A stretch of DNA of 64,000 nucleotides from Candidatus Latescibacterota bacterium. GTDB taxonomy: Bacteria > Latescibacterota > UBA2968. Each line of letters opens with the position of its first letter. The first letter of the stretch is position 1. Of the stretch, positions 10,498 through 31,635 are shown piece after piece. The position numbers and the translations under genes are program-made. The DNA lies in contig OZ220741.1 of assembly GCA_965116885.1 (NCBI GenBank), forward strand, positions 1,440,001-1,504,000, in the 5' to 3' direction. The notes under the pieces are model-generated. The model did not search any database. It was given only the letters and a program-made list of their open reading frames with translations, and was not told the origin of the DNA.

Positions 10498-10551
10498 GAA
10501 AAACAAAAAGATAAAATGTTTATGTTTTAAATTCTATAAGTTGTCGCTTTC

Positions 10552-10614: not shown

Positions 10615-10631
10615 AGGTCACGTCCAATTTG

Positions 10632-11987: not shown

Positions 11988-11992
11988 ATCTC

Positions 11993-14943: not shown

Positions 14944-14988
14944 TGTGTCATCCTCTCAGAATAAATCTATTTGATTTTCAGGACAGGA

Positions 14989-17292: not shown

Positions 17293-18600
17293 TCAGTGTA
17301 TGCCTGGTGTTCTTGGCTTTCGTATCACCAGCAGGCCCCATCGCACTATTGTCTTAGTTGATCTCATCAGCCTTTTCATCATTCGATATATAGCAAAACT
17401 TAACATCAAGATGAGTAGAGAAGGAAAAAAGAACCTTGACAGGGCACTCCCAATATTTTTCCAATCTCCAGCGGCAAAGCCGCTTATTATCTCGCTAAAA
17501 GTCTTATATACAAGACCGGGATAGTTTGAAATCAAATCGGGAAAGAGAAAAAAAATCTTGTAAAAGAACAAGACGAAGAAGCTGGCACTGACAATTCCAT
17601 ACACGCAGAGAAACGATTTTATCTTCCCACTGATGCGTAAAAAAATAGGTTCAGCAATCTCTCTCTCTCTTAAAATGAAACGCTTGACAAAGTATTTCAG
17701 AATTTCTAAAGATCTTTTTCTGAGATTTGGCACGCCTGCTATATCTGAAAAAAGCCAATACCCATCAAATCGGAAAATTGGATTCAAGTTAAACAGTGCT
17801 GACCCGTAGTTAAAAAGAATCAAAAATAAAAACACGCTACTTGCTGTCGTCAGATACAGTATGAAGAGTATAGGAATAAAAATAAGCTGAAAATATATAC
17901 CTCCGAAATCCACCATCGCACGTTGCATTCTCGGTAGCCTCCAGGCATCCGTTACATTAGAATAAAGAACGGGAAAGCGCAGATACAATCCTATCCCAAT
18001 CTCTCCGGGTGACGCGCCATAATAAGCACAAGCTGAAGCATGACCTAACTCGTGGAAAATCCCTAAAACACCAAAAATTATCAGCGTTAGAATCGTATCT
18101 TGAAACGAAATATCATAAATAGTAAAGTCTATGACTTGGAGTTGAAAAAAATAGAAATACCCAAAAAAGACAAAAGAGAAAAAAATAAAAGAGATCAAAA
18201 TTTTTGGATAAAAAAGAGTCTTGAGAATATTACTAACGGCATGAACCGCATTCGCCCGCATAAAAGGGTATTGAAAATAAAAATACGAATTGCTTGTTTG
18301 AGCATCTACATCTGAGGTTGTATTTTCAAGGATTCCGTAGGGTTTTAGAAATGAATGGATAATTGCAGCAATGTCTTTGGCAGAGTATGTCTTATTCCTG
18401 ATAGAAGAGTATGCGCTTGCAATTTCAGACAGCGTTTTTTTGCCGTCTATCAACTCGATGATTTGATAGACACCCTCGCTTATTTCAAACCGTTTCGTGC
18501 CTATGCACAAAACATAACTTTCCTCTACTAAAGCGGTATCGAATTTATACATAGAGATTTTCGGAACCAACTTAATCGGATCTGGTAGGGATTCTTGCAT
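17293..18600 (-). CDS. M50-type membrane zinc metalloprotease with N-terminal PqqD/RRE-like domain
   Basis: HELGH and NLNPIFRFDGY motifs within TM segments; N-terminal IIELIDGKKTLSEIA resembles the RRE/PqqD winged helix. Confidence 0.85.
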   Translation of the reverse strand: MQESLPDPIKLVPKISMYKFDTALVEESYVLCIGTKRFEISEGVYQIIELIDGKKTLSEIASAYSSIRNKTYSAKDIAAIIHSFLKPYGILENTTSDVDAQTSNSYFYFQYPFMRANAVHAVSNILKTLFYPKILISFIFFSFVFFGYFYFFQLQVIDFTIYDISFQDTILTLIIFGVLGIFHELGHASACAYYGASPGEIGIGLYLRFPVLYSNVTDAWRLPRMQRAMVDFGGIYFQLIFIPILFILYLTTASSVFLFLILFNYGSALFNLNPIFRFDGYWLFSDIAGVPNLRKRSLEILKYFVKRFILREREIAEPIFLRISGKIKSFLCVYGIVSASFFVLFFYKIFFLFPDLISNYPGLVYKTFSEIISGFAAGDWKNIGSALSRFFFPSLLILMLSFAIYRMMKRLMRSTKTIVRWGLLVIRKPRTPGIH

Positions 18601-18750: not shown

Positions 18751-19752
18751 CTAAGGGTTTTCGGTTTCCATTACAAGTTTACTCACTCGATCAATTTCTT
18801 GCTCCTTATGTTTTTGCAGATTGCGGAGCAAAACGGACATTTCAGATATGCTATGGTCAATCGCAATCTCCCAGTCCGTGCAGGGTACCTGATGAACATA
18901 AGACAATGCCTGTCTATAGCAATCTATTGCATGATCGAGAATTTCTTCTGCCAGCCCTGTAAAGTAAATCATACGCGCAAGTTCTTCCAGGGTAACGGAT
19001 TCTAATTTTTCGTGAAGCTCCTTTCTGTCAATGATTTGAGACAAAAGGTACGAATATCTGCCAGCGATAAAGTCATCTCTCCAATTTTTAAGATCATTAT
19101 GAAATTGTAAGCCCGTAAAAAAGGCATCTAAGGATTTTTCAAGAAGACGGATCAATTCCGGTGAGTCAGACAAACAGGCTAAAGCAGTTGTCACCATCTG
19201 GATTGTGGCGGCTTTACCAGAGGCAATATCAAACGCCTCATCCAATGAATAAAATGTGGGATTATTCCATTTTGTTCTTTCTTGTAGTGTTGCAGCAATG
19301 GCGCGACGCTGATACTTTTTGGCAAAGGCCCAAAAATCCGAACCTGGGGGGAATAAGTCATTGAGAAGACCAAACGCATGATCTCTCAAAAGAGAAGCAA
19401 AAAAATAGGCATCTACTTTGAGAGTCTCCCGCTCATCAAAAACATCATCCATATACGATGTGTAGATGTATAATGACCGATTGACAAAATACAATTTCTG
19501 CTGTGTGTCTTCGTCCAGGACAAATACCTCCGAGAACTGCGATGTAAAGGAAGTATGTACATCAGTGGATAGAAATACGGGATATTGTTTTAGGGCAGCC
19601 TCCAGATCATATTCTTCACATATCTGAGACATAAATTGATAAAATTCGACTTCGGATTTTTTGATTGAGATATCATCTTGAAGACCAAAGTTCAGTGAAG
19701 CAATTTCATCCTCAATAGAGGCAAAGGGGTCTGATGGCAAATGTGTATTCAT
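18751..19752 (-). CDS. Class I isoprenoid-synthase-fold protein (ComQ-like putative peptide prenyltransferase)
   Basis: DDVFD (DDxxD), SGKAA, and a second degenerate motif LQFHNDLKNWRDD; helical character. Confidence 0.7.
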   Translation of the reverse strand: MNTHLPSDPFASIEDEIASLNFGLQDDISIKKSEVEFYQFMSQICEEYDLEAALKQYPVFLSTDVHTSFTSQFSEVFVLDEDTQQKLYFVNRSLYIYTSYMDDVFDERETLKVDAYFFASLLRDHAFGLLNDLFPPGSDFWAFAKKYQRRAIAATLQERTKWNNPTFYSLDEAFDIASGKAATIQMVTTALACLSDSPELIRLLEKSLDAFFTGLQFHNDLKNWRDDFIAGRYSYLLSQIIDRKELHEKLESVTLEELARMIYFTGLAEEILDHAIDCYRQALSYVHQVPCTDWEIAIDHSISEMSVLLRNLQKHKEQEIDRVSKLVMETENP

Positions 19753-19809: not shown

Positions 19810-22440
19810 CTACTGCAGGGATATTGAATCACCATTGACAGGCGCGTGACTATGCTGACGTGTCTCCTTGAGGAGTGTATTATTCCCCAAAAGATTGGTG
19901 CAGCCCGAAAGGCTATCAATAAATGAAAGCGTCTGTTCTGTACCATTTAGGTTAAGCTCGTGGGTAAGAGATTTTTGATGGGATAAATGCTGCATAATAC
20001 TGTCTGCGACGCTATCAGGCGTCAGGTCAACCGGATCAATTTTCTTTACCAGTCCCAAATCGGACAGCCTACTTGCTCTGATATCTTGATCTTCAGAGAG
20101 TAAACTCGGTACAAGGAGTGCTGGAGTACTGGTTTCCAGAATATTGACACAAGTATTGTAACCCGCCCGGCTGATTACAAGATTGGCTGCCTGCATCCAT
20201 TGAAGAAAATCAGGTGTATATCGCCTTATATAGAACGGGCCCATTTCACACATTCGTTCCAAAGTCTCGTATTGGTCATCATTGATAAACGGGCCAGGAA
20301 ATATGACCATTTTCCAACCATCCATCTTTCCCTGTTTATGCAGCAATTTCCAGGCTTTGATACAAGGCACAATAAGCTCGTAACCGTCAACACCACCACC
20401 TGCGCTAACCATCACAAAGTTCTCTATGTTCTCATCTGGTTTTCTACATATCCCGTCATGCGGCTTTTCAGAGACATATCCAGTATATACAATCGGTATG
20501 ACAATATCTTCTATCCAGGGGAAATATTCTTTTAGTTGGGTCACGCTCGGATCTCCATGAACAAGCAAGGCATCAAAGTAAGCATTTAATGTCGGACAAA
20601 CTTCCTCATAGTATCTTTTAGCTTTATATAGGTCCTGGTCTTGAGGGGTCAGGAGGTCAGGTCTTTCTACATTAATACTCGAATGAGGCTTAAAAATATC
20701 AGCCGTTCTCGCCCGTAGCGGAATATCGCGCAAAGAGCAGATGATATGAATATCCGGAATTTTTGATTTAACCATTCCCAACAGGTATTGTAATTCTGGG
20801 CGTAGCTTCCATCGACCAAAGGGAAAATGTTCAATCATAATTACATCTGGCTGGATGTCTGTAACCGTCTCTGTCAATTTAATTAGCCTTTTCTCGAAAG
20901 TCTCCCGGATACCTTGATCCTCGTCTTCAGAGGCTAATCCCTCCGGCGTAAGTGAAATAGGCATTAATTGGATTAAATTAATGGATCCCTGCATTTTGAA
21001 ATCGGGAATTGGGCGTCCCCCATTCACAAAGTGAACGTCGTAATTTTGGGATAGTTCACGAGCGATTTGAAGGTTGCGAAAGTGATGGCCCATGCCAACG
21101 AGATGCTGGCTATACAGGATGATACGCTTCCTGCGGGATCTTGATAGTGGCTTGGATGCCCGATGTCGTTTTCCCTGGGTCGCGTGCTTGTATATGGGTT
21201 CATAATTTGCCACTACTTGCTGCCAATCTTTGTGTTCCGAAATCCACTGTCGTGCCCGATGCCCAAGTTCCGCTCTAAGTTGTGTATCTTCAATTAAAGC
21301 CGAGCATTTCTGCGCGAGATTCTCTGGATCATCAGCATTACATATACGCCCCGTCGTGCCGTCATCTATAATTTCCCGAAGCGCAGCCACATCGCTGACA
21401 ATGACGGCTTTTCCCATTGCCATGGCTTCATACGGCTTAATAGGGGTCACCAATTCCGTTACGCGGCTTCGTACTCTGGGTATGACAAAAATATCAATCA
21501 AGGCATAATAGTCGAAAACATCTTCGTGTGGTACCTGTCCTGTAAAGTGTACAACCGAGTCTAAACCCAATTCTGTTGCAAGCCGCTGAAGTGGTTCTAC
21601 CTCATCTCCACCACCAACAATGAGAATTTTAATCTGAGGATGACGAGATAGGAGCATTTTTCCTGCTTTGAGAAGCCAACGAAGACCTTCAAGTTTTCTG
21701 ATTGAACCAATATGTCCGATGGTTACGCTATCGGAACCAAGCCCTAATCGCTCTGCCAAATGGGTTGGGTACGGTCTCGGTGTAAATTTCGATGTATCTA
21801 CACCATTGGGAACAATGAAAATTTTGTCTTCAGGAATCCCTTCTCGGATAAACTCCTCTTTCATTGTTTCAGCCAATGTGACGACCTGATCGGCTCGTTT
21901 CATGGCCTCTACAAACAAAAAGTGTCGGTGCTGATATGCTTTTGAAGAAGTATCAAGGGTTCCTGCAACCACGCCCGTTTCATGCCATAATCCGCGCACT
22001 TCATAGATCACAGGTAGGTTGTATTTGTGTCCGACTTTAGCTGATATTAATGCATTCTGGGCAGGAGAAGCAACATGGATCACCTCGGGTTTGTGAACTT
22101 CGACAACACGAGAAATATGATTCTGAAACTGCCGTTGCAATCCCTCACGATGTAATGCAGCAGAATATCGTGTCTGACGAAAACCAAGGTCATGGAAATG
22201 TTGATCAAGCAATGCCTGGGTCATGTCGTTCAAGTACAATACCCCATCCAGATACTCCTCTTCAACAAGAAATTTACTGTCTATAAGATGAGTGTCTTTG
22301 AAGCGGGTTGCTACAATAGGTTCAAGCCCTATTCTACTCTGGGTATCAAAGATATATTTGCTTCTGATTGTGTAACCCGCCTGTCGAGATCGCAGAGAAT
22401 AATCCAAAACATGTAGGACCTTCATAACTAAACCTTTCAT
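19810..22440 (-). CDS. Fused bi-domain glycosyltransferase (GT4 + COG4671/GT28-like)
   Basis: N-domain KVLHVLDYS...AGYTIRS...TPIKPYEAMA; C-domain YSQHLVGMGHHFRN...SAGGG...SRAGYNT...EDQDIRA. Confidence 0.88.
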   Translation of the reverse strand: MKGLVMKVLHVLDYSLRSRQAGYTIRSKYIFDTQSRIGLEPIVATRFKDTHLIDSKFLVEEEYLDGVLYLNDMTQALLDQHFHDLGFRQTRYSAALHREGLQRQFQNHISRVVEVHKPEVIHVASPAQNALISAKVGHKYNLPVIYEVRGLWHETGVVAGTLDTSSKAYQHRHFLFVEAMKRADQVVTLAETMKEEFIREGIPEDKIFIVPNGVDTSKFTPRPYPTHLAERLGLGSDSVTIGHIGSIRKLEGLRWLLKAGKMLLSRHPQIKILIVGGGDEVEPLQRLATELGLDSVVHFTGQVPHEDVFDYYALIDIFVIPRVRSRVTELVTPIKPYEAMAMGKAVIVSDVAALREIIDDGTTGRICNADDPENLAQKCSALIEDTQLRAELGHRARQWISEHKDWQQVVANYEPIYKHATQGKRHRASKPLSRSRRKRIILYSQHLVGMGHHFRNLQIARELSQNYDVHFVNGGRPIPDFKMQGSINLIQLMPISLTPEGLASEDEDQGIRETFEKRLIKLTETVTDIQPDVIMIEHFPFGRWKLRPELQYLLGMVKSKIPDIHIICSLRDIPLRARTADIFKPHSSINVERPDLLTPQDQDLYKAKRYYEEVCPTLNAYFDALLVHGDPSVTQLKEYFPWIEDIVIPIVYTGYVSEKPHDGICRKPDENIENFVMVSAGGGVDGYELIVPCIKAWKLLHKQGKMDGWKMVIFPGPFINDDQYETLERMCEMGPFYIRRYTPDFLQWMQAANLVISRAGYNTCVNILETSTPALLVPSLLSEDQDIRASRLSDLGLVKKIDPVDLTPDSVADSIMQHLSHQKSLTHELNLNGTEQTLSFIDSLSGCTNLLGNNTLLKETRQHSHAPVNGDSISLQ

Positions 22441-22565: not shown

Positions 22566-25500
22566 TTATGGCGCGAAAGGGTGGCGTGGTGTGATTTTAT
22601 CCACAAAACGCCATCGTACCGCATCGGCATACAAGGTCCCCTTTGCGCGGTCAGACAATTCGACTACAGCCTCTACTCCCTCGACAAATTTGTATCGCCC
22701 CAGGTGATTCCAGCCCGCTTTCATAAGATCGCGCTCCATTTCAAGCGTATCGACCTTATCCGCGTGAAAAACAGTAAGTGTAAAGGTCGTACCAATGCCC
22801 TCGCGCCTGGCTATTGCGGGATCGGGAAAATAGAAGCCCACATCAAACTCGCCATCTCTGGGGATTCGCGCGGCCCACACAGCCGGCTGTGCGCCATCGC
22901 CCGGTTTCTTTTGCCGATAATTTTTTGTATACCGCCCATAAGCTGTCGGCAGGCTACGCTCGCGCCAGTTGCCCCCTTCAAGACCGGGACGAGAGTAGCG
23001 CGTCGTTCGCCGAATCGGCATTGAAAATCCCTTGTCGTCATTATCTACAATGATCTCAAAAGGCCCCATATCTGCACGGATTACATCCCCTTCTCCTGTC
23101 ACATCTTTGAGATAGGCCATGGGAGTCCCCCCTGTAACCTGTTCAGGAACGCGCACAGGAGAGATAAGCGGTTGGCGATTGCGTGCAAAAAAGGGTTCGA
23201 CGATCACCCGCAAGGGTTGCTCCCACAGCACCATCGAAACTTCGATTTCCTGACCGCCTTCAATCTCTACGCCCTTTACTGCCTCATCATTTTGACCAAT
23301 GGCCGTGATTTGCACATAGCCCCTGCCGGGTTCGCTATTCTTAATGCGCACAATCAGTTGGTAAACTAGCGTTCCGGAGCCATCGTCTACCTTCAAGGCT
23401 TTTACACTTGTCAATTTATAGCCCGGGATTTCCGTGCTATATATCCAATCTTTAACCAGACGCTGTAATCTCTGGCGATTTTCATCTTCGGTGTAGCCTG
23501 CGGCGGCACGTTCAAAGGTCGAAAAATCGATGTCCTTGTATTTGTAATTCTGGCTAATGTCGGCCAAGAAGGTGCGGAATGTTTCTTCACCCAAAAAGGA
23601 GGCGAACATCCCAAAGAGTGCAGGCCCCTTGGCGTCGAGAGCCTGGCGATAAAGGTCCGCCTCCTGTTCGGGATCTAAATCGGCAAATGACTTGCCCTGC
23701 ATCTCGGCAATCAGCTTGTTCCAAGCTCTCGTTTTTCTTCTGCTTATAAACGCCGCCTCGCGCGCCCTGTCACTGTTGCGTCGTTGGCTTGGGTAAAAAG
23801 CGGCTGTTAGATCGGTTCTCAAGTCATTCTGTAGATACATGGGCAGACCCTTTTTAAGCAGGGCATAATGGTCGCCCACAAACTGCTTGTCATAAGCCCA
23901 GAGTTGAAAAACAGGGCTACGAAACAGTCCATTGGATTTTATTGCCGCGTTTTCTTCAGAAAAAAAAGTTGAAAAAATGGCGCGTATCAAAATATCCTTT
24001 TTAACATTTTTGGGATCTTGATTCGATTGCTTTTGTTTCTTTTGGATAACCACCTGCCGCAAGAGCACATCTTCTTCAATCATCAACACGCCCGGCTGTG
24101 TCAGGCCGCCCTTTTCTTCCCAGCCTTCGTAATACCACTGAATATGGAACGGAACTTCCACCAGTGAAAGGCTCGGATAGGGATATTTCATGCCAGATTC
24201 CTGTTCCATGAGATCCACGATTTGCCCGAGCGCACGCACAATCTCTTTTTTTGCACCTTCAAAAAATTTAATCGGACGCAGATGTGAAGGATGCACGTAA
24301 AGGGCACATTCGATGTCGTGAATGGTGGCGCGATACACGCGATATACACCAGCATTGAGCGATAGGACAGGCACGGGATTTTCAACAACCCATTGGCGGG
24401 TCACTTGTGTGCCGAGGGTATCGGTCTTGCCGATCTGCCCCTGGGTAATGACTTCGAGACCTTTGGGAAATGTGATATGCAAGTTGGCCGTTGAAAAAGA
24501 GACCGGGCGCGCATTTTTATAGCCATAATCAACGCCCGTGACGGGATACCAGCGGCTTCGCGGCGGCAAAAAGATGGACTTGTCGCGAATCCACGCCGTC
24601 AAAGAGCCACTGTACCCCTTATCTTTCCGCAACCTCGGTTTGCCTTTTTCTCGCTTGAGATCAAAACCATCCGTGTTAATATCACCCGCATATGCTAACG
24701 TCAGATCGAGTTTTTGTTCCGATTGCAGGGGGGTAGTGGGCACGACACTAATCACGCTTTCCGTCCGCTCCCATGCTATTGCTCTGCCATCAGCGTGCGT
24801 CAGACTTTGGATTTTGAATCCGGGATTGAGTGAAAGAATCAACGTATCGAGCGGGGATTCGTGAGGATTTCTCAAGCTAATCGTGCCAGAGGTTGTAAGT
24901 AGCTCCTCTCCCAAAAGCGTCAATGCCAGATCGTAATGGGTGATTTCCGCTACGGAAATATGTGCAATCGCTTCCTGCTGCGCGAGCAAGGACTGGCGAT
25001 ACGCTTGCCTATTTCGAGCTTCCGCATCCACATAAAAGTAAAGACCAGCAGCCAATCCAAAACCGGTCAACGCACATCCCCAGCCAAACCACCGCGCAGT
25101 CGCAGAATGTGCAAGACGGGGATATCGATCAATCGCAAATCCCAAAAAACTTATGCCGAGCAAAATGTAAAACACGCGTTGCAAACCCACTTGCGTCATA
25201 TTCCCTATGCCCATCAGGTCCGAATAATCCATGTGGGTCGCAAGAGAAATGAAATCGAAGAGGTCGGGATATTGTTTGCCCAGATATAATATCACAGCGA
25301 GCGAATACGCTGTTGCGACCAAGGCAGCCGCTATTGGACGACGCAGCAAGACGCCTAAAAAAAATGTCAGAGAAGACATAAAAACCAAGGCGGGTAGGTT
25401 CAAGAGCACGAGGTATAAAATATAAGGTTTGACTGTCAGTGGATTGCCCGTCATGCTGATCGTTGCTGCCTGAAGGCCCAGAGTCAAAAACAGGATCCCA

Positions 25501-25856
25501 AGGCTAAAAAAGAAAAGCGCGCTAACCGTGCCCAGATACTTACCCGCAACCAGTTCTGCCGTTGAAATAGGACGCCCGGCAACTACTTCATAAATGTGGG
25601 CATTTTCGTCAGCCGCTCTAAAAGACCCCGCCATAAATGGAATGACAAGGGTTTGAAATAAAGTGTATATAAGAAAAAGAAAGTAAGATTCTTTTCCCGG
25701 AGGCATTCCAAATTCAGTATCTATGGCAAGACGAATGCCGTAATAAACGAAAATGCCCAAGGGGAAGATGCCCAAAATGCGAAATTTTGTAGTTCTCAAA
25801 AGCATTTTGCGCTCATAGCGTGCAACACCAAGTATATTGTTGAGAATAGAGAACAT
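22566..25856 (-). CDS. ABC-2 permease fused to M1-aminopeptidase-like domain and golvesin-like C-terminal domain
   Basis: N-terminal TM helices (VAGKYLG); M1-like WYP and YPYPSLSLVEVP but no HEXXH; C-terminal IIVDNDD...ADAVRW. RBS AGGAG before ATG 25856. Confidence 0.8.
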   Translation of the reverse strand: MFSILNNILGVARYERKMLLRTTKFRILGIFPLGIFVYYGIRLAIDTEFGMPPGKESYFLFLIYTLFQTLVIPFMAGSFRAADENAHIYEVVAGRPISTAELVAGKYLGTVSALFFFSLGILFLTLGLQAATISMTGNPLTVKPYILYLVLLNLPALVFMSSLTFFLGVLLRRPIAAALVATAYSLAVILYLGKQYPDLFDFISLATHMDYSDLMGIGNMTQVGLQRVFYILLGISFLGFAIDRYPRLAHSATARWFGWGCALTGFGLAAGLYFYVDAEARNRQAYRQSLLAQQEAIAHISVAEITHYDLALTLLGEELLTTSGTISLRNPHESPLDTLILSLNPGFKIQSLTHADGRAIAWERTESVISVVPTTPLQSEQKLDLTLAYAGDINTDGFDLKREKGKPRLRKDKGYSGSLTAWIRDKSIFLPPRSRWYPVTGVDYGYKNARPVSFSTANLHITFPKGLEVITQGQIGKTDTLGTQVTRQWVVENPVPVLSLNAGVYRVYRATIHDIECALYVHPSHLRPIKFFEGAKKEIVRALGQIVDLMEQESGMKYPYPSLSLVEVPFHIQWYYEGWEEKGGLTQPGVLMIEEDVLLRQVVIQKKQKQSNQDPKNVKKDILIRAIFSTFFSEENAAIKSNGLFRSPVFQLWAYDKQFVGDHYALLKKGLPMYLQNDLRTDLTAAFYPSQRRNSDRAREAAFISRRKTRAWNKLIAEMQGKSFADLDPEQEADLYRQALDAKGPALFGMFASFLGEETFRTFLADISQNYKYKDIDFSTFERAAAGYTEDENRQRLQRLVKDWIYSTEIPGYKLTSVKALKVDDGSGTLVYQLIVRIKNSEPGRGYVQITAIGQNDEAVKGVEIEGGQEIEVSMVLWEQPLRVIVEPFFARNRQPLISPVRVPEQVTGGTPMAYLKDVTGEGDVIRADMGPFEIIVDNDDKGFSMPIRRTTRYSRPGLEGGNWRERSLPTAYGRYTKNYRQKKPGDGAQPAVWAARIPRDGEFDVGFYFPDPAIARREGIGTTFTLTVFHADKVDTLEMERDLMKAGWNHLGRYKFVEGVEAVVELSDRAKGTLYADAVRWRFVDKITPRHPFAP

Positions 25857-25933
25857 GGGATTACTCCTGTTTAAGCGATCAGCTTTCAGCCTCTCCCTCC
25901 ACATCTAAAGGCGAGAAGCGAGCCTTGTTTTCT

Positions 25934-26833
25934 TCATCCCGCGATTTCATCAGCGGTGTTGCTGCCCATAAAATAGAGATATGCATCTTCGAGATTGGGT
26001 GCGACCACTTTGGCATCAGCGGGTGGCTCGCCATCGCCCACCATCCGAACACTCAGGCGATCACCTTCAACATTGACCGTCACCACATGAAACACACGCG
26101 ACAGCTTTTCAAAGTGAGGCTCATCAACACGTATTTGCCACGTCTTGCCATCGGCCTTTGAAATGAGGTCTGATGGAGAGCCGCGAAAGATCAGTTGTCC
26201 ACGATTCAAAATCGCGAGATACTTGCAAGTGCTCGAAATATCACCCACAATATGCGTAGAGATCAAAATTACACGATCGCTGCTCAAGCGACCTAAAATG
26301 CCTCGAAACCGGATGCGTTCTTCCGGGTCAAGCCCCACAGTCGGTTCATCGACAATCAGAAAACCTGGATCGGTCAAAATGGCCTGTGCAATGCCAAGAC
26401 GCCGTATCATGCCACCGGAAAACGTACCCGTGCGCCGCTTGCGTGCATCGTACAACCGGACTTCATTCAATGCTTGTTCAACACGCGCCAAACGCTCGCT
26501 CTTATTGTGGATGCCACCCAAAACAGCCATATAATCAAGAAATTCCCAGGCGGTTAGTTGTCGATAGGTGCCAAAATTTTGTGGCAAATATCCAAGGCGT
26601 CGGCGAATTTCTGTGCGGTCTTTTACCAGATCGAACTCATCCATGGTCACGCTGCCACTCGATGAGTCCATTTGGGTCGATAAAATTTTAATCAGTGTTG
26701 TTTTGCCCGCGCCATTGGGTCCCAGTAGGCCAAATGTTCCGTGAGGAATGCTCAAGGTGATATCGTCCAGGGCAGGCGCATCGCCGCGCCGATATGTTTT
26801 TGTCAGGTTTGAGATGCGAATGACCATCAGCAT
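25934..26833 (-). CDS. ABC transporter ATP-binding protein
   Basis: GPNGAGKT, FSGGM, IVDEPT, STH. Confidence 0.96.
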   Translation of the reverse strand: MLMVIRISNLTKTYRRGDAPALDDITLSIPHGTFGLLGPNGAGKTTLIKILSTQMDSSSGSVTMDEFDLVKDRTEIRRRLGYLPQNFGTYRQLTAWEFLDYMAVLGGIHNKSERLARVEQALNEVRLYDARKRRTGTFSGGMIRRLGIAQAILTDPGFLIVDEPTVGLDPEERIRFRGILGRLSSDRVILISTHIVGDISSTCKYLAILNRGQLIFRGSPSDLISKADGKTWQIRVDEPHFEKLSRVFHVVTVNVEGDRLSVRMVGDGEPPADAKVVAPNLEDAYLYFMGSNTADEIAG

Positions 26834-26872
26834 GCCTCCTGAATATTTTACGCGATCAAAAAAGTATAAGAA

Positions 26873-26921
26873 TGGTCAAGACCACCTATCTTTTGACAAA
26901 CAATATAAGTGGTCTTGACCA
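26873..26921. promoter_or_regulatory. Stem-loop downstream of the precursor gene
   Basis: Perfect 13-bp inverted repeat TGGTCAAGACCAC / GTGGTCTTGACCA with a 23-nt loop. Confidence 0.7.
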
Positions 26922-27013
26922 GCAAACTAAGCAAAGACCTCTAACAATAACTTCTACGGCTTGCTCCTACAGTCCTCAATACCACAATATTATTACTGCC
27001 GTAGAGCTCGCTA

Positions 27014-27250
27014 TTAGCTGTCGATCGTGCAGTCGTGTTCTCCACAAGAGCCTCCGCCGATGTCTTTTCCACAGTCATGCCACAGACAAAAGCCATCATC
27101 ATCATCCGTGGTGCAGTCATGAGTGATGCACCACATTTCCAACCTTTCTTCAAGCGCATCAACGACCAGATCCTCATAGAGTTCAGGATACGACGCGATG
27201 TGTGCTTTGAGTTCAATCTCTGAAGAGATGTGAGCAGACAAATTAGCCAT
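27014..27250 (-). CDS. Putative RiPP precursor peptide (78 aa) with 3x CxxHDCxxD core
   Basis: AGGAGG RBS; Cys-free acidic leader ending LEERLEM; core WCITHDCTTD-DDDGF-CLWHDCGKD-IGGGS-CGEHDCTIDS; adjacent to the rSAM/SPASM gene. Confidence 0.85.
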   Translation of the reverse strand: MANLSAHISSEIELKAHIASYPELYEDLVVDALEERLEMWCITHDCTTDDDDGFCLWHDCGKDIGGGSCGEHDCTIDS

Positions 27251-27345
27251 GATACTACCCTCCTGGTGTTGAAACGTGAACAGATAACATCGGCGTTTCT
27301 ACTACTTATCACACATAATGCCTCCTTTCTCGAGCGTTATACTTA

Positions 27346-29052
27346 CTATAAAGTTTGTTGTTTGTACTCCTCAAATACCTCAGGCACGACCGTATGGAAA
27401 ACCTTGGGATACTCATCGCAATAGGACGTTTTGATATTGCCATCATTTTTTACATAAGCATGTGCAGCACATCCACCGCCACAAAAGAATGCATATTTGC
27501 ACTTACTGCAAGATGGCACATTAGAAATATTCCGATCATACCATTCTGATAAATGTTCATCATTGAATTCAACTTTATCCAAATAATTTCCAACTTTGTA
27601 CCGGTCTACACCCACCAATTCCCAACACGTATAGAGGTCTCCATAAGGATCAAGGATCAACATACCGTTCTGTGCGCCACAGAAGATGGGCCTAAAACTT
27701 AATAGCCCTTTACCATCAAGAGCTCGCTTGAAGGTCTGTCTAATGCCAGCATCTTGGCAAGAAATTTGGTGCATTAAGTCGGGATTTTCTTTTACAAACT
27801 GATAGTATTTGCGAGTAAACTCTCTTCTTGGCATCACCGAAACTTCTCCATTTTCAGAACGTACGGATTCCATTTCAAGCACAATGGGGCTTGTGCCTTT
27901 GCGGTAGTTCGAAAAAATTTCTTCCTCTCGTTCCACATCGATATATTGCTCTTCATCTATGTACACTCCAGGATCAAAAATTTCCTGTTCCTGGGGCTCA
28001 TTGTCCTTGAAAGATATGACAGAGGCAACAGACTCGGAGGGTTCAGAATCTGATGTTGGTGCTTCAATTGAAATAAGAGGTGCCGTCTGACCATAATTGC
28101 CTGGCGTCTTTTTACCAGACATTGTAGCACTACACGACATGCCTTCTTCAATCTGATGTACCAAGGCAGAATAGGCCGAAAATTTCGGATACTCTGTAAA
28201 TCCTCTATCTTTGAACAAATCAAATAATGCAGGTAAAATATCCACATTGTCGTAATCTGTATTGATTCGCATTGAAACTTGCACATCAAGCGACAGAGCA
28301 AGTGCCACATTTTTCATGATCGCACCAAAACTATCTCCTGCACGATAATGTGGACGCTTGCGATTGTGATTTTCTTCTTCGCCATCTAAGGTAATCTGGA
28401 GGCGTCTGATTTTTTGGGGACCTAATAAATCCGTGAAATGATGAAGGTCATAGCCATTTGTAATCGCAGAAAAGATGTAATCGCGTTTCAAACCTTCATC
28501 TACAATATACCGCACGATCGCTTTATTTTTTGCTAACAAAGGTTCTCCCCCATACAGAGTAATGTTCTTGCTATGCATGGCTCTGTTGGGTTGAATTTCG
28601 CACATGGCCTGGTATGCCCGGTCAACCATCTCCTTTGTAAAGACTTGCTTTGACCAGCCCTTGCCATGAGATGAAATGTCATTTTCAAAACAATAAGGAC
28701 AGCGGAAGTTGCAATCGTAGGCCACCAAGAATAAGAAAGATGCAGAGCTTTGGCTTGAGTTGTGGTGGAGAAAATTCGCCATGCTATGCACGTATTCTCG
28801 TTCTTCCACAGGAGAACGACTGGTCAGATAGCCACGCTTCATTAAGGTTTGGATCGTTTCTTTTGAACAAGGCAGTTCATCAAACATATCTTCCGAGAGA
28901 ACAACCTTGCTTTTGATCATCTGAGCGACTTTTTTATTTACTCTATCTATTGCGCCTGTATAGCCATGAACGAGCAAAGTGTAATCTGGATCTTCAGGCA
29001 GCTTGACACAAATCGTATAGGACGATACGCGATATAATTCTGAATTTGCCAT
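27346..29052 (-). CDS. Radical SAM/SPASM peptide maturase with N-terminal RRE-like region
   Basis: CNFRCPYC, YGGEPLL, ITNG, ITLDG; SPASM C..G...C...CxxCxxxxxCxGGC...C; about 100-aa N-terminal extension. Confidence 0.93.
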   Translation of the reverse strand: MANSELYRVSSYTICVKLPEDPDYTLLVHGYTGAIDRVNKKVAQMIKSKVVLSEDMFDELPCSKETIQTLMKRGYLTSRSPVEEREYVHSMANFLHHNSSQSSASFLFLVAYDCNFRCPYCFENDISSHGKGWSKQVFTKEMVDRAYQAMCEIQPNRAMHSKNITLYGGEPLLAKNKAIVRYIVDEGLKRDYIFSAITNGYDLHHFTDLLGPQKIRRLQITLDGEEENHNRKRPHYRAGDSFGAIMKNVALALSLDVQVSMRINTDYDNVDILPALFDLFKDRGFTEYPKFSAYSALVHQIEEGMSCSATMSGKKTPGNYGQTAPLISIEAPTSDSEPSESVASVISFKDNEPQEQEIFDPGVYIDEEQYIDVEREEEIFSNYRKGTSPIVLEMESVRSENGEVSVMPRREFTRKYYQFVKENPDLMHQISCQDAGIRQTFKRALDGKGLLSFRPIFCGAQNGMLILDPYGDLYTCWELVGVDRYKVGNYLDKVEFNDEHLSEWYDRNISNVPSCSKCKYAFFCGGGCAAHAYVKNDGNIKTSYCDEYPKVFHTVVPEVFEEYKQQTL

Positions 29053-29105
29053 AAGAAAACCTCCCTTGGATTGCGTGGGTATTATATTTTTTTATCCATA
29101 TACGC

Positions 29106-29294
29106 TTATTTTGCGAAATAGAGACATATTTCACCAGCCAATAACGATTGTTGTTCTATCTCTCTATTTTGCTGGCTCATTCTACGCATCATCGCGCGCA
29201 AGGCTTCAGATCGAACTTCATCGTTCCAGATAGCATAGAGTAAGGCGAGATGAGCCAAATGATCGCGTTTTGTTATCTGTGTCTGAGCATTCAT
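29106..29294 (-). CDS. Small protein (62 aa), first ORF of the sigma-54 operon
   Basis: GAGGTG RBS; paralog at 10216..10383. Confidence 0.7.
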   Translation of the reverse strand: MNAQTQITKRDHLAHLALLYAIWNDEVRSEALRAMMRRMSQQNREIEQQSLLAGEICLYFAK

Positions 29295-29345
29295 AAGTCA
29301 CCTCAGTAAATTCTGATGTCGTTATTGTCTTTGCACGTTATATAT

Positions 29346-29361
29346 GGCAAGATGCGTGCCA
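29346..29361 (-). promoter_or_regulatory. Sigma-54 (-24/-12) promoter, copy 2, heading the RiPP cluster
   Basis: Minus strand TGGCACGCATCTTGC, identical to copy 1. Confidence 0.85.
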
Positions 29362-29377
29362 TAAACTCGTTCGAAAT

Positions 29378-29409
29378 AAAAAAAAGCACTTGAATACGCT
29401 CAAGTGCTT
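29378..29409 (-). terminator. Probable intrinsic terminator of response regulator copy 2
   Basis: Perfect 10-bp stem AAGCACTTGA/TCAAGTGCTT plus a T-tract on the minus strand. Confidence 0.65.
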
Positions 29410-29465
29410 GAAAAATAAAAAGATAAAACTTTTATGTTTTAAGTGCTATAAGAGCAAAAGGGATT

Positions 29466-29509
29466 AAGTGCAACATTCATGTTACACTTTTGGAACATTC
29501 ATGTGGCAC
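29466..29509. promoter_or_regulatory. Putative tandem enhancer sites for the copy-2 activator
   Basis: Palindrome AAGTGCAACAT-TC-ATGTTACACTT (10/11); core AACATTCATGT repeated 22 bp later; 105-150 bp upstream of -24. Confidence 0.55.
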
Positions 29510-29578
29510 CTGCTGCTGTCGGTTGACCAACCATGACCGCTAAAAAGCGAGAGGCTGGTGGTGGCTGACGGCTGGTCG

Positions 29579-30967
29579 CTATCTGTAAGTGGATACATCT
29601 ATGGTATATTTGGAGATTAACCGTTGCAGCCTGTGGCGATTCATTCCATTCTGTCTGGCTGCACGGGACACATTGCCGTTGTGCGCTTTGAGGAGGCGGT
29701 CAATAAAAGTCCGCTCAAATTTCTCAATCACGGCATCTTTGGCGTCCTGGAAAGGTAAATCGGTCTGCGCGGAAACAATGGTATCTCCGGTCTGAGCGAT
29801 TAAATTTTCAGGTAAATCCTCGATCTGGATCGCATCCGCATCTGATAGGGCCATGGCTCGCTCCATCACATGCATCAGTTCTCGCACATTGCCTGGCCAG
29901 ATATATTCGCACAATACATCCATCGCCTCGGTTGAAATACCTTGAATCGCCTTTTCAGAGGTCTCGGCAAAGTCGTTCAAAAAGTGATGAGCAAGAAGTT
30001 GAATATCTCCATGCCGATCCCTCAGAGGTGGCAGGTGAATCTCAAAGGTGTTAATCCGATAAAACAAGTCCTCTCGAAACCTGCCCTCTCCAATCAATGC
30101 CTCGATATTCTGATTGGTAGCCGAGATGAGACGGATGTCGATTTCTATCTCCTCATTGCTTCCCAGCCTGCGAATTTTGTGATCTTCCAGAACGCGCAAG
30201 AACTTCACCTGAAGGGGCATGGGCAATTCCCCGATTTCATCGAGAAAAAATGTCCCGCCCTTAGCGTGTTCGATTAACCCAACGCGGTTCTGTTTCGCAT
30301 CTGTGAACGCCCCTTTCGCATGACCAAACAGTTCACTTTCAACCAGATGCTCTGGCAGGCCCCCACAGTTGAGCGGAACAAACGGCTTATGGCTGCGCTT
30401 GCTATTTGCGTGAATACACTGAGCCACCAGTTCTTTTCCCGTTCCACTTTCTCCCGTGATCAGGACATTGGCATCTATATCGCTGATTTTTCGTATTAAA
30501 TCAAAGACCTGGGTGATCGCTACACTATTCCCGATGATGTTTTCGAACCGGAATCGCGTATCCAGCATTTGTTTGAGATCTCTGTTCTCCAACCTCACAC
30601 GCCGCAGTTTCAGTGCCCGTTCTATGACGATTAAAAATTCCTCTGGATCAAACAGCTTTTGAAGAAAGTCGAATGCGCCTGCCTTTATGGCTTCAACAGC
30701 ACCTTCGATGGTTCCATATCCCGTAAAGACGATCACAATAGCCTCTTGATCGCGTGCCATAATGCTTTGGAGCACAGCCATCCCGTCCATTCCGGGCATT
30801 TTCAAATCTACAATGACCAGATCGGGATTTTCCGTCTCGAACAACGCGAGACCTGCCTCACCCGACTCTGCTACGACAACAGCGTACCCCGCTGCCTCCA
30901 GAAACTTCTGGCAACCGCGCAACATATCCTGCTCGTCATCTATTACGAGGATTTTCTCTTTGTCCAT
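29579..30967 (-). CDS. Sigma-54-dependent response regulator, copy 2
   Basis: Same REC and AAA+ domains as 10632..11987, but a different linker and HTH. Confidence 0.96.
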   Translation of the reverse strand: MDKEKILVIDDEQDMLRGCQKFLEAAGYAVVVAESGEAGLALFETENPDLVIVDLKMPGMDGMAVLQSIMARDQEAIVIVFTGYGTIEGAVEAIKAGAFDFLQKLFDPEEFLIVIERALKLRRVRLENRDLKQMLDTRFRFENIIGNSVAITQVFDLIRKISDIDANVLITGESGTGKELVAQCIHANSKRSHKPFVPLNCGGLPEHLVESELFGHAKGAFTDAKQNRVGLIEHAKGGTFFLDEIGELPMPLQVKFLRVLEDHKIRRLGSNEEIEIDIRLISATNQNIEALIGEGRFREDLFYRINTFEIHLPPLRDRHGDIQLLAHHFLNDFAETSEKAIQGISTEAMDVLCEYIWPGNVRELMHVMERAMALSDADAIQIEDLPENLIAQTGDTIVSAQTDLPFQDAKDAVIEKFERTFIDRLLKAHNGNVSRAARQNGMNRHRLQRLISKYTIDVSTYR

Positions 30968-30995: not shown

Positions 30996-31391
30996 TTACC
31001 TCAATTCTTTACGCAGGCCGATCACTTGACGTCCTATTCCGATAATTTTGGGCACGCCGGTTTTGAGATATCTACCGATATAGCCATCGTGTTCACTTCG
31101 GTAGGGTTCGAGCATCAGCATTTTGACATTGTTTCCGATCACTTCCTCAGCGCGGTAGCCGAATATCTTCTCGGCAGCAGCATTGAATGTTTGTACAATC
31201 CCCTGAGTGTCAATCGTAATAATCGCGTCAATGGTCGTTTCCAGGATCGCCTTGTAAATGGCTTGTCGTCTCTTCAAGTGCGGTGAGCCTGCCTGCGTCG
31301 CCGCAGAGGCAGGGATTTGGTCTCTGTGTCCATCCCTGCTTACACCCGCAGGTACATGCCTATTAATCTGTGGTTCTCCACGAGCGTTCAT
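30996..31391 (-). pseudogene. Internally deleted copy of the PAS histidine kinase (PAS-only remnant)
   Basis: PAS nearly identical to 11993..13144 up to GLRK, then joined directly to the last kinase codons; HisKA and HATPase domains absent. Confidence 0.85.
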
Positions 31392-31635
31392 TATCTTACC
31401 TTGAGATTTTGGCCTAATGGACAGGTCCATTTTTGTCTTGAATTGCGGGGCATTACATGATATGCTTGTTTTGAGGAAAAAATAAAAATAGAAGGCATAC
31501 TTCACCGTCCAAAGCAAAGTATGCCTCCGACCTTATCACCAACCCGTAAGAAAGTTGGCTTAAAAACAATTTGTATTCTTTAATACTCGTTGTCGAGAAT
31601 TTCTTTTCACACAATTCACACAGTTGAGGTACGCG

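What the first reader, a model, noticed from the sequence alone, without database searches (positions are those of the whole stretch)
27014..27250. Precursor with three tandem CxxHDCxxD units
Seen: the core has CITHDCTTD, CLWHDCGKD and CGEHDCTID with an exact 14-residue period (5-residue linkers DDDGF and IGGGS). It follows a 39-aa Cys-free leader ending LEERLEM. Each unit contains a CX3D followed by a CX2D. Established: the ranthipeptide maturase PapB links Cys to Asp in CX3D motifs. Inference: up to six Cys-Asp thioethers could form, with an invariant His in each unit. Alternatives are His/Trp crosslinks or a metal-binding peptide. Two Trp residues are available for prenylation, and Thr/Ser for glycosylation.
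Basis: partly seen in the sequence, partly recalled or inferred. Interest (0 to 1): 0.88.

Follow-up and report, generated by a model that had tools for sequence, protein, structure and literature searches.

The report
Cysteine-rich peptide precursor beside radical enzyme
A small gene in an uncultivated Latescibacterota bacterium encodes the starting peptide of a natural product that the neighbouring radical enzyme probably ties into small sulfur-bridged rings, and I found no description of this peptide family in the curated libraries or the papers I searched.

Summary
Window 27014..27250 (minus strand) encodes a 78-aa peptide with a Cys-free 39-aa leader and three CxxHDCxxD units at an exact 14-residue period.

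It is a real RiPP precursor:
- It sits directly after a radical SAM/SPASM gene in a sigma-54-driven operon that also carries an ABC exporter, glycosyltransferases and an HExxH membrane protease.
- The arrangement is syntenic in Latescibacterota genomes.
- Sixteen relatives share a near-invariant leader (87% identity) and hypervariable Cys-rich cores (29% identity).

The interpretation needs revision. Across the family the constrained position is Cys+3. It holds D, N, H or Y at 100 of 132 Cys, and 0 of 5000 shuffles reach that count. Asp at Cys+4 (the CX3D reading) is at chance. The ortholog keeps every Cys, His and CxxD Asp, but has T/E/D after His and lacks both Trp.

Best reading: leader-guided Cys-to-(i+3) thioether rings, with His occupying an acceptor position. 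The chemistry is not shown.

The enzyme reaches no curated family cut-off. Its closest structure is CteB.

Verdict: new variant of a known kind; interest 0.62.

The parts
27014..27250 (-). Precursor peptide gene, 78 aa. Leader = codons 1-39 (27134..27250). Core = codons 40-78 (27017..27133), with six Cys each followed at +3 by His or Asp. Stop codon at 27014..27016.
   Evidence: Translation. Shine-Dalgarno sequence. Homologs. Coding-type substitution pattern.
27346..29052 (-). Radical SAM/SPASM peptide maturase, 568 aa. It has a CNFRCPYC cluster motif, an N-terminal beta-sheet plus helices domain (residues about 1-100, RRE-like), a disordered acidic insert at about 300-405, and a C-terminal SPASM domain with 7 invariant and 1 nearly invariant Cys.
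   Evidence: Pfam PF04055 and PF13353. NCBIfam SPASM TIGR04085 at 61.7 bits against a cut-off of 27; no maturase equivalog cut-off reached. Sequence. Conserved Cys. AF2 model, pLDDT 73.8. Foldseek top hit CteB, E 1.7e-15.
29346..29361 (-). Sigma-54-type -24/-12 promoter, TGGCACGCATCTTGCC, upstream of the operon and just after the terminator of the sigma-54 activator gene.
   Evidence: The same element lies upstream of the rSAM gene in L001 and L002, and upstream of the truncated precursor in L004. The window-wide count of the pattern at up to 2 mismatches is not above chance (39 against 36.6), so the case rests on position and conservation.
29106..29294 (-). Small 62-aa ORF between the promoter and the rSAM gene; function unknown.
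   Evidence: 76% identical copy at the same place in L002. A paralog follows the second copy of the promoter at 10216..10383. No Pfam hit.
26855..26921 (-). 16-bp hairpin followed by a U-rich tract, directly after the precursor gene. Inferred to be a partial terminator or transcript stabiliser between the precursor and the exporter genes.
   Evidence: Fold of 26834..27016, minimum free energy -53.2 kcal/mol, z -2.93. No Rfam match. The role is inferred.
25934..26833 (-). ABC transporter ATP-binding subunit, 299 aa.
   Evidence: PF00005, E 4e-30. 86% identical and syntenic in L002.
22566..25904 (-). 1112-aa membrane protein: an N-terminal ABC-2-type permease, a large domain with a weak M1-peptidase-like match (no HExxH, no GxMEN), and Golvesin_C. 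Probable export partner of the ATPase.
   Evidence: Syntenic in L001 and L002.
19810..22440 (-). Fusion of a GT4 glycosyltransferase with a C-terminal GT28/GT1-like glycosyltransferase, 876 aa. Candidate tailoring enzyme.
   Evidence: Pfam. Syntenic in L002. L003 has a stand-alone EryCIII/UDPGT-like GT at the equivalent place.
18751..19752 (-). 333-aa protein of a lineage-restricted family. All-helical, with Asp-rich motifs (DDVFD at 101-105, NDLKNWRDD at 218-226). Weak lead to the prenyl-diphosphate-synthase/prenyltransferase fold.
   Evidence: No Pfam, NCBIfam or PDB sequence hit. 22 homologs at 65-93% identity only. Atlas lead PF00348 on 47% of one cluster. AF2 pLDDT 50.5. Foldseek gives no hit with E<=0.001 and TM about 0.3, but the listed hits are almost all trans-prenyl synthases or MoeN5.
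17293..18600 (-). 435-aa intramembrane HExxH metalloprotease (HELGH at residue 183) with a weak PqqD-like N-terminal domain. Probable leader peptidase.
   Evidence: NCBIfam daptide_HExxH 120 bits (cut-off 300), YydH/LiaK 48.9 (cut-off 225), PqqD E 0.0038 over residues 17-85. Motif. Syntenic in L002 and L003.
16092..17282 (-). GT4 glycosyltransferase, 396 aa. Last gene syntenic with the cluster.
   Evidence: Pfam. 80-90% identical in L002 and L003 after the protease gene.
29579..30967 (-). Sigma-54-dependent response regulator, 462 aa. Probable activator of the operon.
   Evidence: PF00158, E 1e-69, and PF00072. Adjacent to the rSAM gene in L002 and L003 too.
30996..31517 (-). 173-aa PAS-only protein. 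It looks like a truncated sensor when compared with the full kinase of the paralogous module at 11993..13207.

Best explanation
The ORF is the precursor of a radical-SAM-modified ribosomal peptide (RiPP).

Shown:
- A conserved leader joined to a hypervariable, Cys-rich core.
- A position directly after an rSAM/SPASM gene in a conserved operon.
- A family-wide motif C-x-x-[D/N, less often H/Y/F].

Inferred mechanism:
1. A sigma-54 activator switches on the operon.
2. The rSAM's N-terminal RRE-like domain docks the leader (SSExDLKAHIASYPELYEDLxVDxLEERLEM).
3. The enzyme uses a 5'-deoxyadenosyl radical and its auxiliary Fe-S clusters to join each Cys sulfur to a carbon of the residue three positions downstream. 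The beta-carbon is most likely, because D, N, H, Y and F all carry a CH2 next to an sp2 centre.
4. This peptide would then carry six four-residue rings arranged as three bicyclic modules (C-I-T-H / C-T-T-D, and so on) joined by the flexible linkers DDDGF and IGGGS, with a mass change of -12 Da.
5. On this reading, three rings end on His rather than on the following Asp.
6. The HExxH membrane protease removes the leader after LEM, the glycosyltransferases (and possibly the prenyl-synthase-like protein) decorate the core, and the ABC system exports it.

The biological activity is unknown. Given the hypervariable cores and the export system, I guess an antimicrobial or a signal.
For: - Gene order and domains.
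- Synteny: rSAM followed by the precursor in L001, L002 and L003. The whole operon matches in L002 at 75-90% protein identity for the enzyme, transporter and regulator genes; the precursor is 51% and the PAS protein 49%.
- Leader against core: the last 30 leader residues are 87% identical on average across 17 sequences, the cores 29%.
- Cys+3: D, N, H or Y at 100 of 132 Cys. Shuffles give a mean of 40.7 and a maximum of 58; 0 of 5000 reach 100.
- His: 10 of 12 core His lie at Cys+3.
- C-terminus: 15 of 17 cores end in Cxx[D/N/H][S/T].
- The ortholog L001b keeps all six Cys, three His and three CxxD Asp despite 14 non-synonymous codon changes in the core.
- rSAM features: CX3CX2C motif and a full SPASM domain.
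- Best NCBIfam partial matches are peptide maturases, led by CefB 129.5, geopeptide 119.6 and PapB 115.7, with SCIFF at 99.1. PapB and SCIFF are named thioether-formers; CefB and the geopeptide maturase carry no stated chemistry.
- Nearest solved structure by sequence and by fold is the thioether-forming CteB.
- Precedents: PapB forms Cys-Asp beta-thioethers and accepts CX0-6D spacings (PMC9413430 passages). NxxcB forms a beta-thioether to Asn and tolerates Ala, Gln and Asp; the review states that any residue with a beta-carbon could in principle serve (PMC9389541 passages).
That suggests co-location, but adjacency was not seen.
Against: - No chemistry was or can be tested here.
- The rSAM reaches no curated family cut-off.
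- Fold neighbours include enzymes with other chemistries: TigE is a cyclopropyl synthase (abstract of PMC10878394), and anSME also appears. The fold does not fix the reaction.
- No radical-SAM Cys-His link came up in the papers I searched.
- In this window's peptide every His is followed by Asp, so the CX3D alternative cannot be excluded for this peptide itself.
- The 17 cores are related and internally repetitive, so the shuffle test overstates independence.
- About a quarter of family Cys, mostly the inner Cys of CxCD units, lack D/N/H/Y at +3.
- The roles of the glycosyltransferases, the protease and the 333-aa protein rest on synteny and weak matches.
Confidence: 0.5

Rival explanations
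1. One reading: a PapB-like ranthipeptide with six Cys-Asp thioethers, three in CX3D rings (C-x-x-H-D) and three in CX2D rings. His is an unmodified residue inside the ring.
For: All three His in this peptide are followed by Asp. PapB needs a thiol and a carboxylate and accepts CX0-6D (PMC9413430). PapB is among the best partial NCBIfam matches, at 115.7 bits. After aromatic or His residues at +3, the +4 residue is acidic in 12 of 28 family cases.
Against: Asp at Cys+4 is at chance in the family: 20 of 132, reached by 4177 of 5000 shuffles. The ortholog has T and E after His in two of three units while keeping His. The PapB cut-off is not reached, 115.7 against 340.
Confidence: 0.2
2. The same i-to-i+3 ring topology, but with alpha-carbon (sactionine) links, as in streptosactin's pair of four-residue rings.
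For: Streptosactin has two unnested four-residue sactionine macrocycles (PMC9389541 passages). The SPASM architecture is shared with sactisynthases. SkfB appears among the fold hits.
Against: An alpha-carbon link would not explain why the +3 residue is restricted to D, N, H, Y and F. The closest matches are non-alpha thioether enzymes: CteB by structure, PapB among the best partial family matches.
Confidence: 0.12
3. The rSAM does something other than thioether formation, such as C-C or C-N cyclophanes on the His/aromatic-x-Cys triads, epimerisation as in epipeptides, or another side-chain chemistry. The Cys then form disulfides or bind metal.
For: The gene set of precursor, rSAM, HExxH membrane protease and ABC transporter resembles the epipeptide operon, and the protease gives a YydH/LiaK match of 48.9 bits. 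Cyclophane maturases YhhB (67 bits) and FxsB (46.9 bits) give partial matches. TigE, a cyclopropyl synthase, is the second closest fold after CteB.
Against: Most +3 residues are D or N, which are not aromatic. The epimerase EpeE is a far weaker fold match than CteB: E 2.7e-5 and TM 0.36, against 1.7e-15 and 0.68. Cys is the one residue type invariant in number and register between the orthologs.
Confidence: 0.12
4. An exported metal-binding peptide whose Cys, His and Asp act as ligands, with little or no cross-linking.
For: Cys, His and Asp at regular spacing are classical Zn, Cu and Fe ligands (what the sequence shows).
Against: Relatives replace His and Asp by Asn, Tyr and Phe, and vary the number of units from 2 to 12 Cys. 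A dedicated rSAM/SPASM gene is always adjacent.
Confidence: 0.05

Closest known systems
Freyrasin system PapA/PapB (ranthipeptide, Cys-Asp beta-thioethers)
   Same: A leader-dependent rSAM/SPASM maturase. The core has many Cys, each followed a few residues later by Asp. Multiple small in-line rings are expected. PapB is among the top three NCBIfam partial matches. The chemistry is documented in PMC9413430 and PMC12373016.
   Different: The family spacing is CX2[D/N/H/Y/F], not CX3D. The score of 115.7 is far below the PapB family cut-off of 340. The enzyme carries a disordered insert of about 100 aa. The cluster adds glycosyltransferases, an HExxH membrane protease and a 333-aa protein of unknown family.
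CteA/CteB and the SCIFF family (Cys-Thr gamma-thioether)
   Same: CteB is the closest solved structure by sequence (E 2e-19 with one protein, 1e-26 with the profile) and by fold (E 1.7e-15, TM 0.68-0.71). The match includes an N-terminal leader-binding-type domain and the SPASM domain.
   Different: SCIFF model score is 99 against a cut-off of 425. Sequence identity in the structural alignment is 16-17%. The precursor has no SCIFF-type core.
NxxcA/NxxcB (streptococcal beta-thioether to Asn)
   Same: A radical beta-thioether to an Asn-type acceptor. The enzyme tolerates Asp, Gln and Ala at the acceptor (PMC9389541). This matches the D/N mix at the acceptor column here.
   Different: In NxxC the acceptor lies before the Cys; here it follows it. 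There is one link there, many here. No sequence comparison was made, because no NxxcB sequence was at hand.
Streptosactin (GggA/GggB)
   Same: Unnested four-residue thioether rings in series (PMC9389541). This is the ring size predicted here.
   Different: Those are alpha-carbon links in a 14-mer from Streptococcus. No homology test was made here.
Cys-every-fifth system CefA/CefB (NCBIfam NF038107; known to me only by its model name)
   Same: CefB is the best NCBIfam partial match for the rSAM, at 129.5 bits. Cys recurs at +5 for 38 of 117 family Cys.
   Different: The cut-off of 600 is not reached. The precursor matches no NCBIfam model. I found no paper on CefB.
Epipeptide operon yydFGHIJ, and daptide HExxH proteases
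   Same: The same parts list: small precursor, rSAM, intramembrane HExxH protease, ABC transporter. The protease matches both protease models partially.
   Different: The protease scores are 120 against 300 and 48.9 against 225. The rSAM fold is much nearer to CteB than to the epimerase EpeE.
ComQ/PalQ all-helical Trp prenyltransferases of RiPPs (compared with the 333-aa neighbour only)
   Same: An all-helical protein with Asp-rich motifs. The Foldseek list is dominated by trans-prenyl synthases and MoeN5. ComQ and PalQ prenylate Trp of ribosomal peptides (abstracts in the listing).
   Different: The evidence is weak: pLDDT 50.5, TM about 0.3, and no hit with E<=0.001. The Trp residues of this core are not conserved in the ortholog.

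Membership tests
RiPP precursor (general) | Conserved leader joined to a variable core; small ORF next to its maturase | tested here: met
   Leader 87% against core 29% mean pairwise identity in 17 sequences. The rSAM gene lies directly upstream in the window, L001, L002 and L003.
Radical SAM/SPASM peptide maturase (the neighbour gene) | CX3CX2C SAM-cluster motif | tested here: met
   CNFRCPYC at residues 114-121, invariant in 35 homologs. PF04055 at 40.9 bits against a cut-off of 29.5.
Radical SAM/SPASM peptide maturase (the neighbour gene) | C-terminal SPASM domain with 7-8 Cys for two auxiliary clusters | tested here: met
   TIGR04085 at 61.7 bits against a cut-off of 27. C458, C476, C515, C518, C524, C528 and C545 are invariant, and C432 is conserved in at least 90%.
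Radical SAM/SPASM peptide maturase (the neighbour gene) | N-terminal leader-recognition (RRE, winged-helix) domain | tested here: inconclusive
   The AF2 model has strands 6-9, 13-17, 24-29 and 35-39, then helices 40-47, 54-59 and 64-72, at pLDDT 74-92. The Foldseek alignment to CteB spans 570-589 columns, about the whole query. No RRE-specific profile was run, and Pfam gives nothing for residues 1-100.
Ranthipeptide, PapB family (NF047865) | The maturase reaches the family's curated score | tested here: not met
   115.7 bits against a cut-off of 340. The same holds for 6 of 6 homologs tested.
Ranthipeptide, PapB family (NF047865) | Core built of conserved CX3D (or CX3E) motifs | tested here: not met
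   Present in this peptide (3 of 6 Cys), but Asp at +4 is at chance in the family, 20 of 132, and is T/E/D in the ortholog.
Ranthipeptide (class definition) | Thioether from Cys sulfur to a non-alpha carbon | not testable with these tools
   Needs MS/MS and NMR on the modified peptide.
SCIFF/CteB family (TIGR03974) | The maturase reaches the curated score; the precursor is of SCIFF type | tested here: not met
   99.1 bits against a cut-off of 425. The precursor has no NCBIfam or Pfam hit.
Cys-every-fifth CefB (NF038107) | The maturase reaches the curated score | tested here: not met
   129.5 bits against a cut-off of 600.
Geopeptide maturase (TIGR04280) | The maturase reaches the curated score | tested here: not met
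   119.6 bits against a cut-off of 400.
Sactipeptide | Cys sulfur to alpha-carbon link | not testable with these tools
   Needs chemistry. Only a fold-level resemblance to SkfB and others was seen.
Epipeptide (YydF/YydG) | rSAM epimerase of the YydG/EpeE type; YydH/LiaK protease | tested here: not met
   EpeE fold match is weak, E 2.7e-5 and TM 0.36. The protease scores 48.9 bits against a cut-off of 225.
Triceptide (3-residue cyclophane) maturases | Aromatic-x-x motif as the conserved core unit; YhhB/FxsB-type enzyme | tested here: not met
   YhhB 67 bits against 445, FxsB 46.9 against 370. 80 of 132 residues at the Cys+3 column are D or N, which are not aromatic.
Daptide HExxH protease (NF041824), for gene 17293..18600 | Reaches the curated score; HExxH present | tested here: inconclusive
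   HELGH is present at residue 183, but the score is 120.4 against a cut-off of 300. It is a related metalloprotease, not an equivalog.

The most novel reading that the evidence does not exclude
The maturase makes a cross-link type not yet described for radical SAM enzymes: Cys sulfur to His, either at the His beta-carbon or on the ring. These links alternate with Cys-Asp beta-thioethers, so that one enzyme accepts D, N, H, Y and F at a fixed i+3 position. The product is a string of bicyclic modules that is further glycosylated, and perhaps prenylated, in an uncultivated phylum (Latescibacterota). A related rSAM clade of several hundred members across Bacteroidota is equally uncharacterised.
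Probability: 0.22. Interest if true: 0.82.

Novelty: new variant of a known kind. Interest (0 to 1): 0.62.

Why it matters
It would define a new precursor and maturase family within the radical-SAM thioether peptides, with a fixed Cys-x-x-acceptor register and an unusually broad acceptor set.

- If His, Tyr or Phe really serve as acceptors, that widens the known chemistry of these enzymes. Enzymes of this kind are already used as peptide-stapling catalysts (PapB work).
- The family gives a natural experiment, namely orthologs that differ at the +4 residue. This makes the acceptor question directly testable.
- It points to an unnamed rSAM clade common in Bacteroidota, including named isolates such as Elizabethkingia and Butyricimonas, where experiments are feasible.

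Tried and rejected
- Complex prediction (rSAM residues 1-105 with the leader, residues 1-46): no verdict, score 0.00 against a mark of 0.32. It counts neither for nor against binding. Earlier hand-ins met a full queue or an unreachable machine.
- Pfam and NCBIfam on the precursor: no hit, even at E up to 10.
- ESM Atlas on the precursor: best score 0.82, which is chance level.
- Tandem Repeats Finder on the ORF: nothing.
- Rfam on 25800..29700: nothing.
- The 333-aa protein: Pfam, NCBIfam and PDB sequence searches are blank. Its AF2 model is poor (pLDDT 50.5), so the prenyl-synthase-dominated Foldseek list stays a lead only.
- The M1-peptidase idea for the 1112-aa protein is rejected as a catalytic role, because it has no HExxH or GxMEN.
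- Sigma-54 pattern count over the whole window: not above chance. Only the site's position and conservation carry weight.
- Literature: 'Cys-every-fifth/CefB/geopeptide' returned only unrelated papers. 'OhkG/FlmE' returned none. 'Latescibacter + RiPP + radical SAM' returned 4 papers, none on this cluster as judged from the three listed titles and abstracts. Leader strings returned none. Broader searches showed no paper on this family.
Full report
**1. The observation**

Window 27014..27250, read on the minus strand, is an ATG-started ORF of 78 codons. An AGGAGG lies 7 nt upstream of the start.

- 0 of 200,000 shuffles of the 39-residue core reproduce three CxxHDCxxD units. Only 41 of 200,000 place D or H at +3 of all six Cys.
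- The three units are not a recent DNA repeat. Tandem Repeats Finder finds nothing, and the unit parts share 14-15 of 27 bases.

**2. Context in the window**

All of these genes are on the minus strand. In order of transcription:

1. A PAS-only protein (30996..31517) and a sigma-54-dependent response regulator (29579..30967).
2. A terminator-like hairpin.
3. A near-consensus sigma-54 promoter, TGGCACGCATCTTGCC (29361..29346).
4. A 62-aa ORF (29106..29294).
5. A 568-aa radical SAM/SPASM protein (27346..29052) with CNFRCPYC and a complete SPASM Cys set.
6. The precursor.
7. A 16-bp hairpin with a U-tract.
8. An ABC ATPase (25934..26833).
9. A 1112-aa ABC-2 permease fusion (22566..25904).
10. A GT4-GT28/GT1 fusion (19810..22440).
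11. A 333-aa protein of no known family (18751..19752).
12. A 435-aa HExxH intramembrane metalloprotease with a weak PqqD-like N-terminus (17293..18600).
13. A GT4 glycosyltransferase (16092..17282).

**3. Relatives of the peptide**

- The word-index search found 6 proteins.
- A profile search of 1.84 billion representatives found 15 with E<=0.001. Eight of these had E<=1e-10, and one of the 15 is a 966-aa protein that I set aside.
- The genome scan found 4 loci, all in Latescibacterota MAG assemblies. L001 holds two precursors. L004 holds a truncated one that stops after leader residue 28 in the tblastn match.

After removing one duplicate (P0153 = L003), I analysed 17 close-family sequences and kept 6 distant ones apart.

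- The last 30 leader residues average 87% pairwise identity. The cores average 29%.
- No leader contains Cys. The cores contain 2-12 Cys.
- Nucleotide differences between leaders concentrate on third codon positions.

This is the signature of a translated RiPP precursor family.

**4. Synteny**

tblastn of the window's proteins against the four loci gives the following.

- L002: the whole operon, in the same order. The enzyme, transporter and regulator proteins are 75-90% identical, the precursor 51% and the PAS protein 49%.
- L003: regulator, rSAM and precursor, then an S41 peptidase and a stand-alone EryCIII/UDPGT-like glycosyltransferase, then the 333-aa protein, the HExxH protease and the GT4.
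- L001: permease fusion, rSAM, precursor, a Sel1-repeat gene, a second precursor, more Sel1-repeat genes, and a GT4.

The sigma-54 promoter recurs before the rSAM gene in L001 and L002, and before the truncated precursor in L004.

Several homologs share a longest-contig length:
- precursor with rSAM: P0002/P0008, P0003/P0020, P0155/P0010, P0159/P0024, P0161/P0027;
- precursor with the 333-aa protein: P0154 and P0167 with P0147 and P0148, and P0005 with P0144.

This suggests, but does not show, that the pairing extends to rSAMs only 49-58% identical.

**5. What is conserved in the core**

Across the 17 cores there are 132 Cys.

| Residue at Cys+3 | Count |
|---|---|
| D | 60 |
| N | 20 |
| H | 10 |
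| Y | 10 |
| F | 8 |

- D, N, H or Y together make 100 of 132. When the non-Cys residues are shuffled within each core, the mean is 40.7 and the maximum 58; 0 of 5000 shuffles reach 100.
- Asp at Cys+4, which is the CX3D reading, occurs 20 times, and 4177 of 5000 shuffles reach that.
- Ten of 12 core His lie at Cys+3.
- 15 of 17 cores end in Cxx[D/N/H][S/T].
- The sequences are related and internally repetitive, so these shuffles overstate independence.

The clearest single comparison is the ortholog L001:10001-10234. Its core is FCFSHTCGTDDDDGICISHECGRDSGGGGCGFHDCRIDS.

- All six Cys, all three His, all three CxxD Asp and both linkers are kept.
- The residue after His is T, E and D in the three units.
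- The two Trp of the window peptide are F and S.
- There are 14 synonymous and 14 non-synonymous codon differences in the core.

His therefore occupies the constrained column, and the Asp that follows it does not. In the six distant sequences the +3 column holds D13, Q9, L6, N5, A4 and Y4 of 51.

**6. The enzyme**

- No NCBIfam maturase model reaches its cut-off: CefB 129.5 against 600, geopeptide 119.6 against 400, PapB 115.7 against 340, TIGR04463 109 against 525, SCIFF 99 against 425.
- The same holds for 6 of 6 homologs tested.
- Of 693 homologs with E<=1e-10, 120 are listed. Sixteen of those are 81-93% identical, one is 58%, and the rest are 53% or less. The last group includes named Bacteroidota: Elizabethkingia, Saprospiraceae, Balneolaceae, Ferruginibacter, Rikenella, Bacteroides and Butyricimonas. 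All carry generic names.
- The closest solved structure is CteB, by sequence and by fold (AF2 model pLDDT 73.8; Foldseek E 1.7e-15, TM 0.68-0.71).
- The next fold neighbours are TigE, a cyclopropyl synthase according to the abstract of PMC10878394, then anSME and ChlB. The fold does not settle the chemistry.
- The epimerase EpeE is a much weaker fold match.
- The model shows an N-terminal sheet-plus-helices domain of RRE type and a disordered insert at 300-367 and 387-405.

**7. Mechanism**

From established knowledge:
- PapB joins Cys to the carbon next to the Asp or Glu carboxylate and accepts 0-6 intervening residues (PMC9413430 passages; PMC12373016 abstract).
- NxxcB makes a beta-thioether to Asn and tolerates Asp, Gln and Ala (PMC9389541 passages).
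- CteB makes gamma-thioethers to Thr (PMC10352776 and PMC9389541 passages).
- Streptosactin has serial four-residue sactionine rings (PMC9389541 passages).

The reading that best fits the family pattern is a leader-guided thioether from each Cys to the residue at i+3. My own chemical inference is that D, N, H, Y and F share a beta-CH2 next to an sp2 centre, which favours beta-hydrogen abstraction.

For this peptide the model gives six four-residue rings in three bicyclic modules.

Leader removal by the HExxH protease, glycosylation and export are inferred from conserved neighbours.

**8. Comparison and novelty**

It works like a ranthipeptide or SCIFF-type system, but it fails the membership tests that could be run: the curated scores, and conservation of CX3D. 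I found no paper describing the leader, the motif or the clade. bioRxiv supplements and papers outside the held library were not searchable. I file it as a new variant of a known kind.

**9. Left open**

- The chemistry itself.
- The metagenome and viral collections, which were closed.
- Leader binding: the complex job gave no verdict.
- The function of the 333-aa protein, for which there is only a weak prenyl-synthase-like lead.

Noticed in passing
window 8042..13207 (minus strand): A second, paralogous regulatory module. It has a full PAS-HisKA-HATPase kinase (11993..13207), a sigma-54 response regulator (10632..11987), the same terminator hairpin, an exact sigma-54 promoter TGGCACGCATCTTGCT (10450..10435) and a 55-aa paralog of the 62-aa ORF (10216..10383). 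This module leads into an OMP beta-barrel gene (9366..10013) and a dockerin/EF-hand protein (8042..9463). The copy next to the peptide cluster has only a 173-aa PAS fragment in place of the kinase.
   Followed up: partly
L001 8533..13216: Two precursor genes in one locus: a GCD-repeat type at 8533..8805 and the CxxH type at 10001..10234. They are interleaved with three tandem Sel1-repeat protein genes whose upstream regions are also repeated (Pfam Sel1 E 2e-74).
   Followed up: partly
L004 10001..10084: A truncated precursor. The leader matches for 28 residues, then the frame diverges and stops. A Sel1-type gene follows, and the sigma-54 promoter is still upstream at 9831. This is probably a decayed locus.
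   Followed up: no
window 27346..29052, residues about 300-405 of the rSAM: A poorly conserved, acidic, predicted-disordered insert of about 100 residues between the radical SAM core and the SPASM domain (pLDDT below 50 at 300-367 and 387-405). It is shorter or absent in many Bacteroidota homologs, to judge from their lengths of 416-503 aa.
   Followed up: no
window 22566..25904: An ABC-2 permease fused to a large domain with a weak M1-peptidase match but no HExxH or GxMEN, plus a Golvesin_C domain. The purpose of the extra domains is unknown.
   Followed up: partly
window 18751..19752: A 333-aa protein restricted to this lineage (22 homologs at 65-93% identity, one labelled Gemmatimonadetes MAG). 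It has Asp-rich motifs and a weak prenyl-synthase-like signal. It could be a peptide prenyltransferase of the ComQ/PalQ kind.
   Followed up: partly
L003 10461..13618: In place of the ABC transporter genes, this locus carries a 257-aa protein with no firm family, an S41 peptidase with a Tricorn_C1 domain, and a stand-alone EryCIII/UDPGT-like glycosyltransferase. Its sigma-54 regulator gene matches in two frames (6006..6470 and 6467..7471), which suggests a frameshift.
   Followed up: no
proteins P0007 (= L002 10001..10228) and P0156: Unusual cores within the family. P0007 has three CICDEFE heptad repeats and 12 Cys. P0156 has only 2 Cys, followed by proline-rich, poly-Gly and poly-Asp runs.
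   Followed up: no
window 13597..16095 (minus strand): A UDP-GlcNAc 2-epimerase and a UDP-sugar dehydrogenase directly follow the last GT4 of the cluster. They may supply an unusual sugar for the peptide or belong to a separate polysaccharide pathway. The GT4-GT28 fusion's best NCBIfam match is a PEP-CTERM/XrtA-system glycosyltransferase, at 336 bits against a cut-off of 442.
   Followed up: no
That genome probably holds a second cluster of this kind. Only one precursor was found there by the pattern scan.
   Followed up: no
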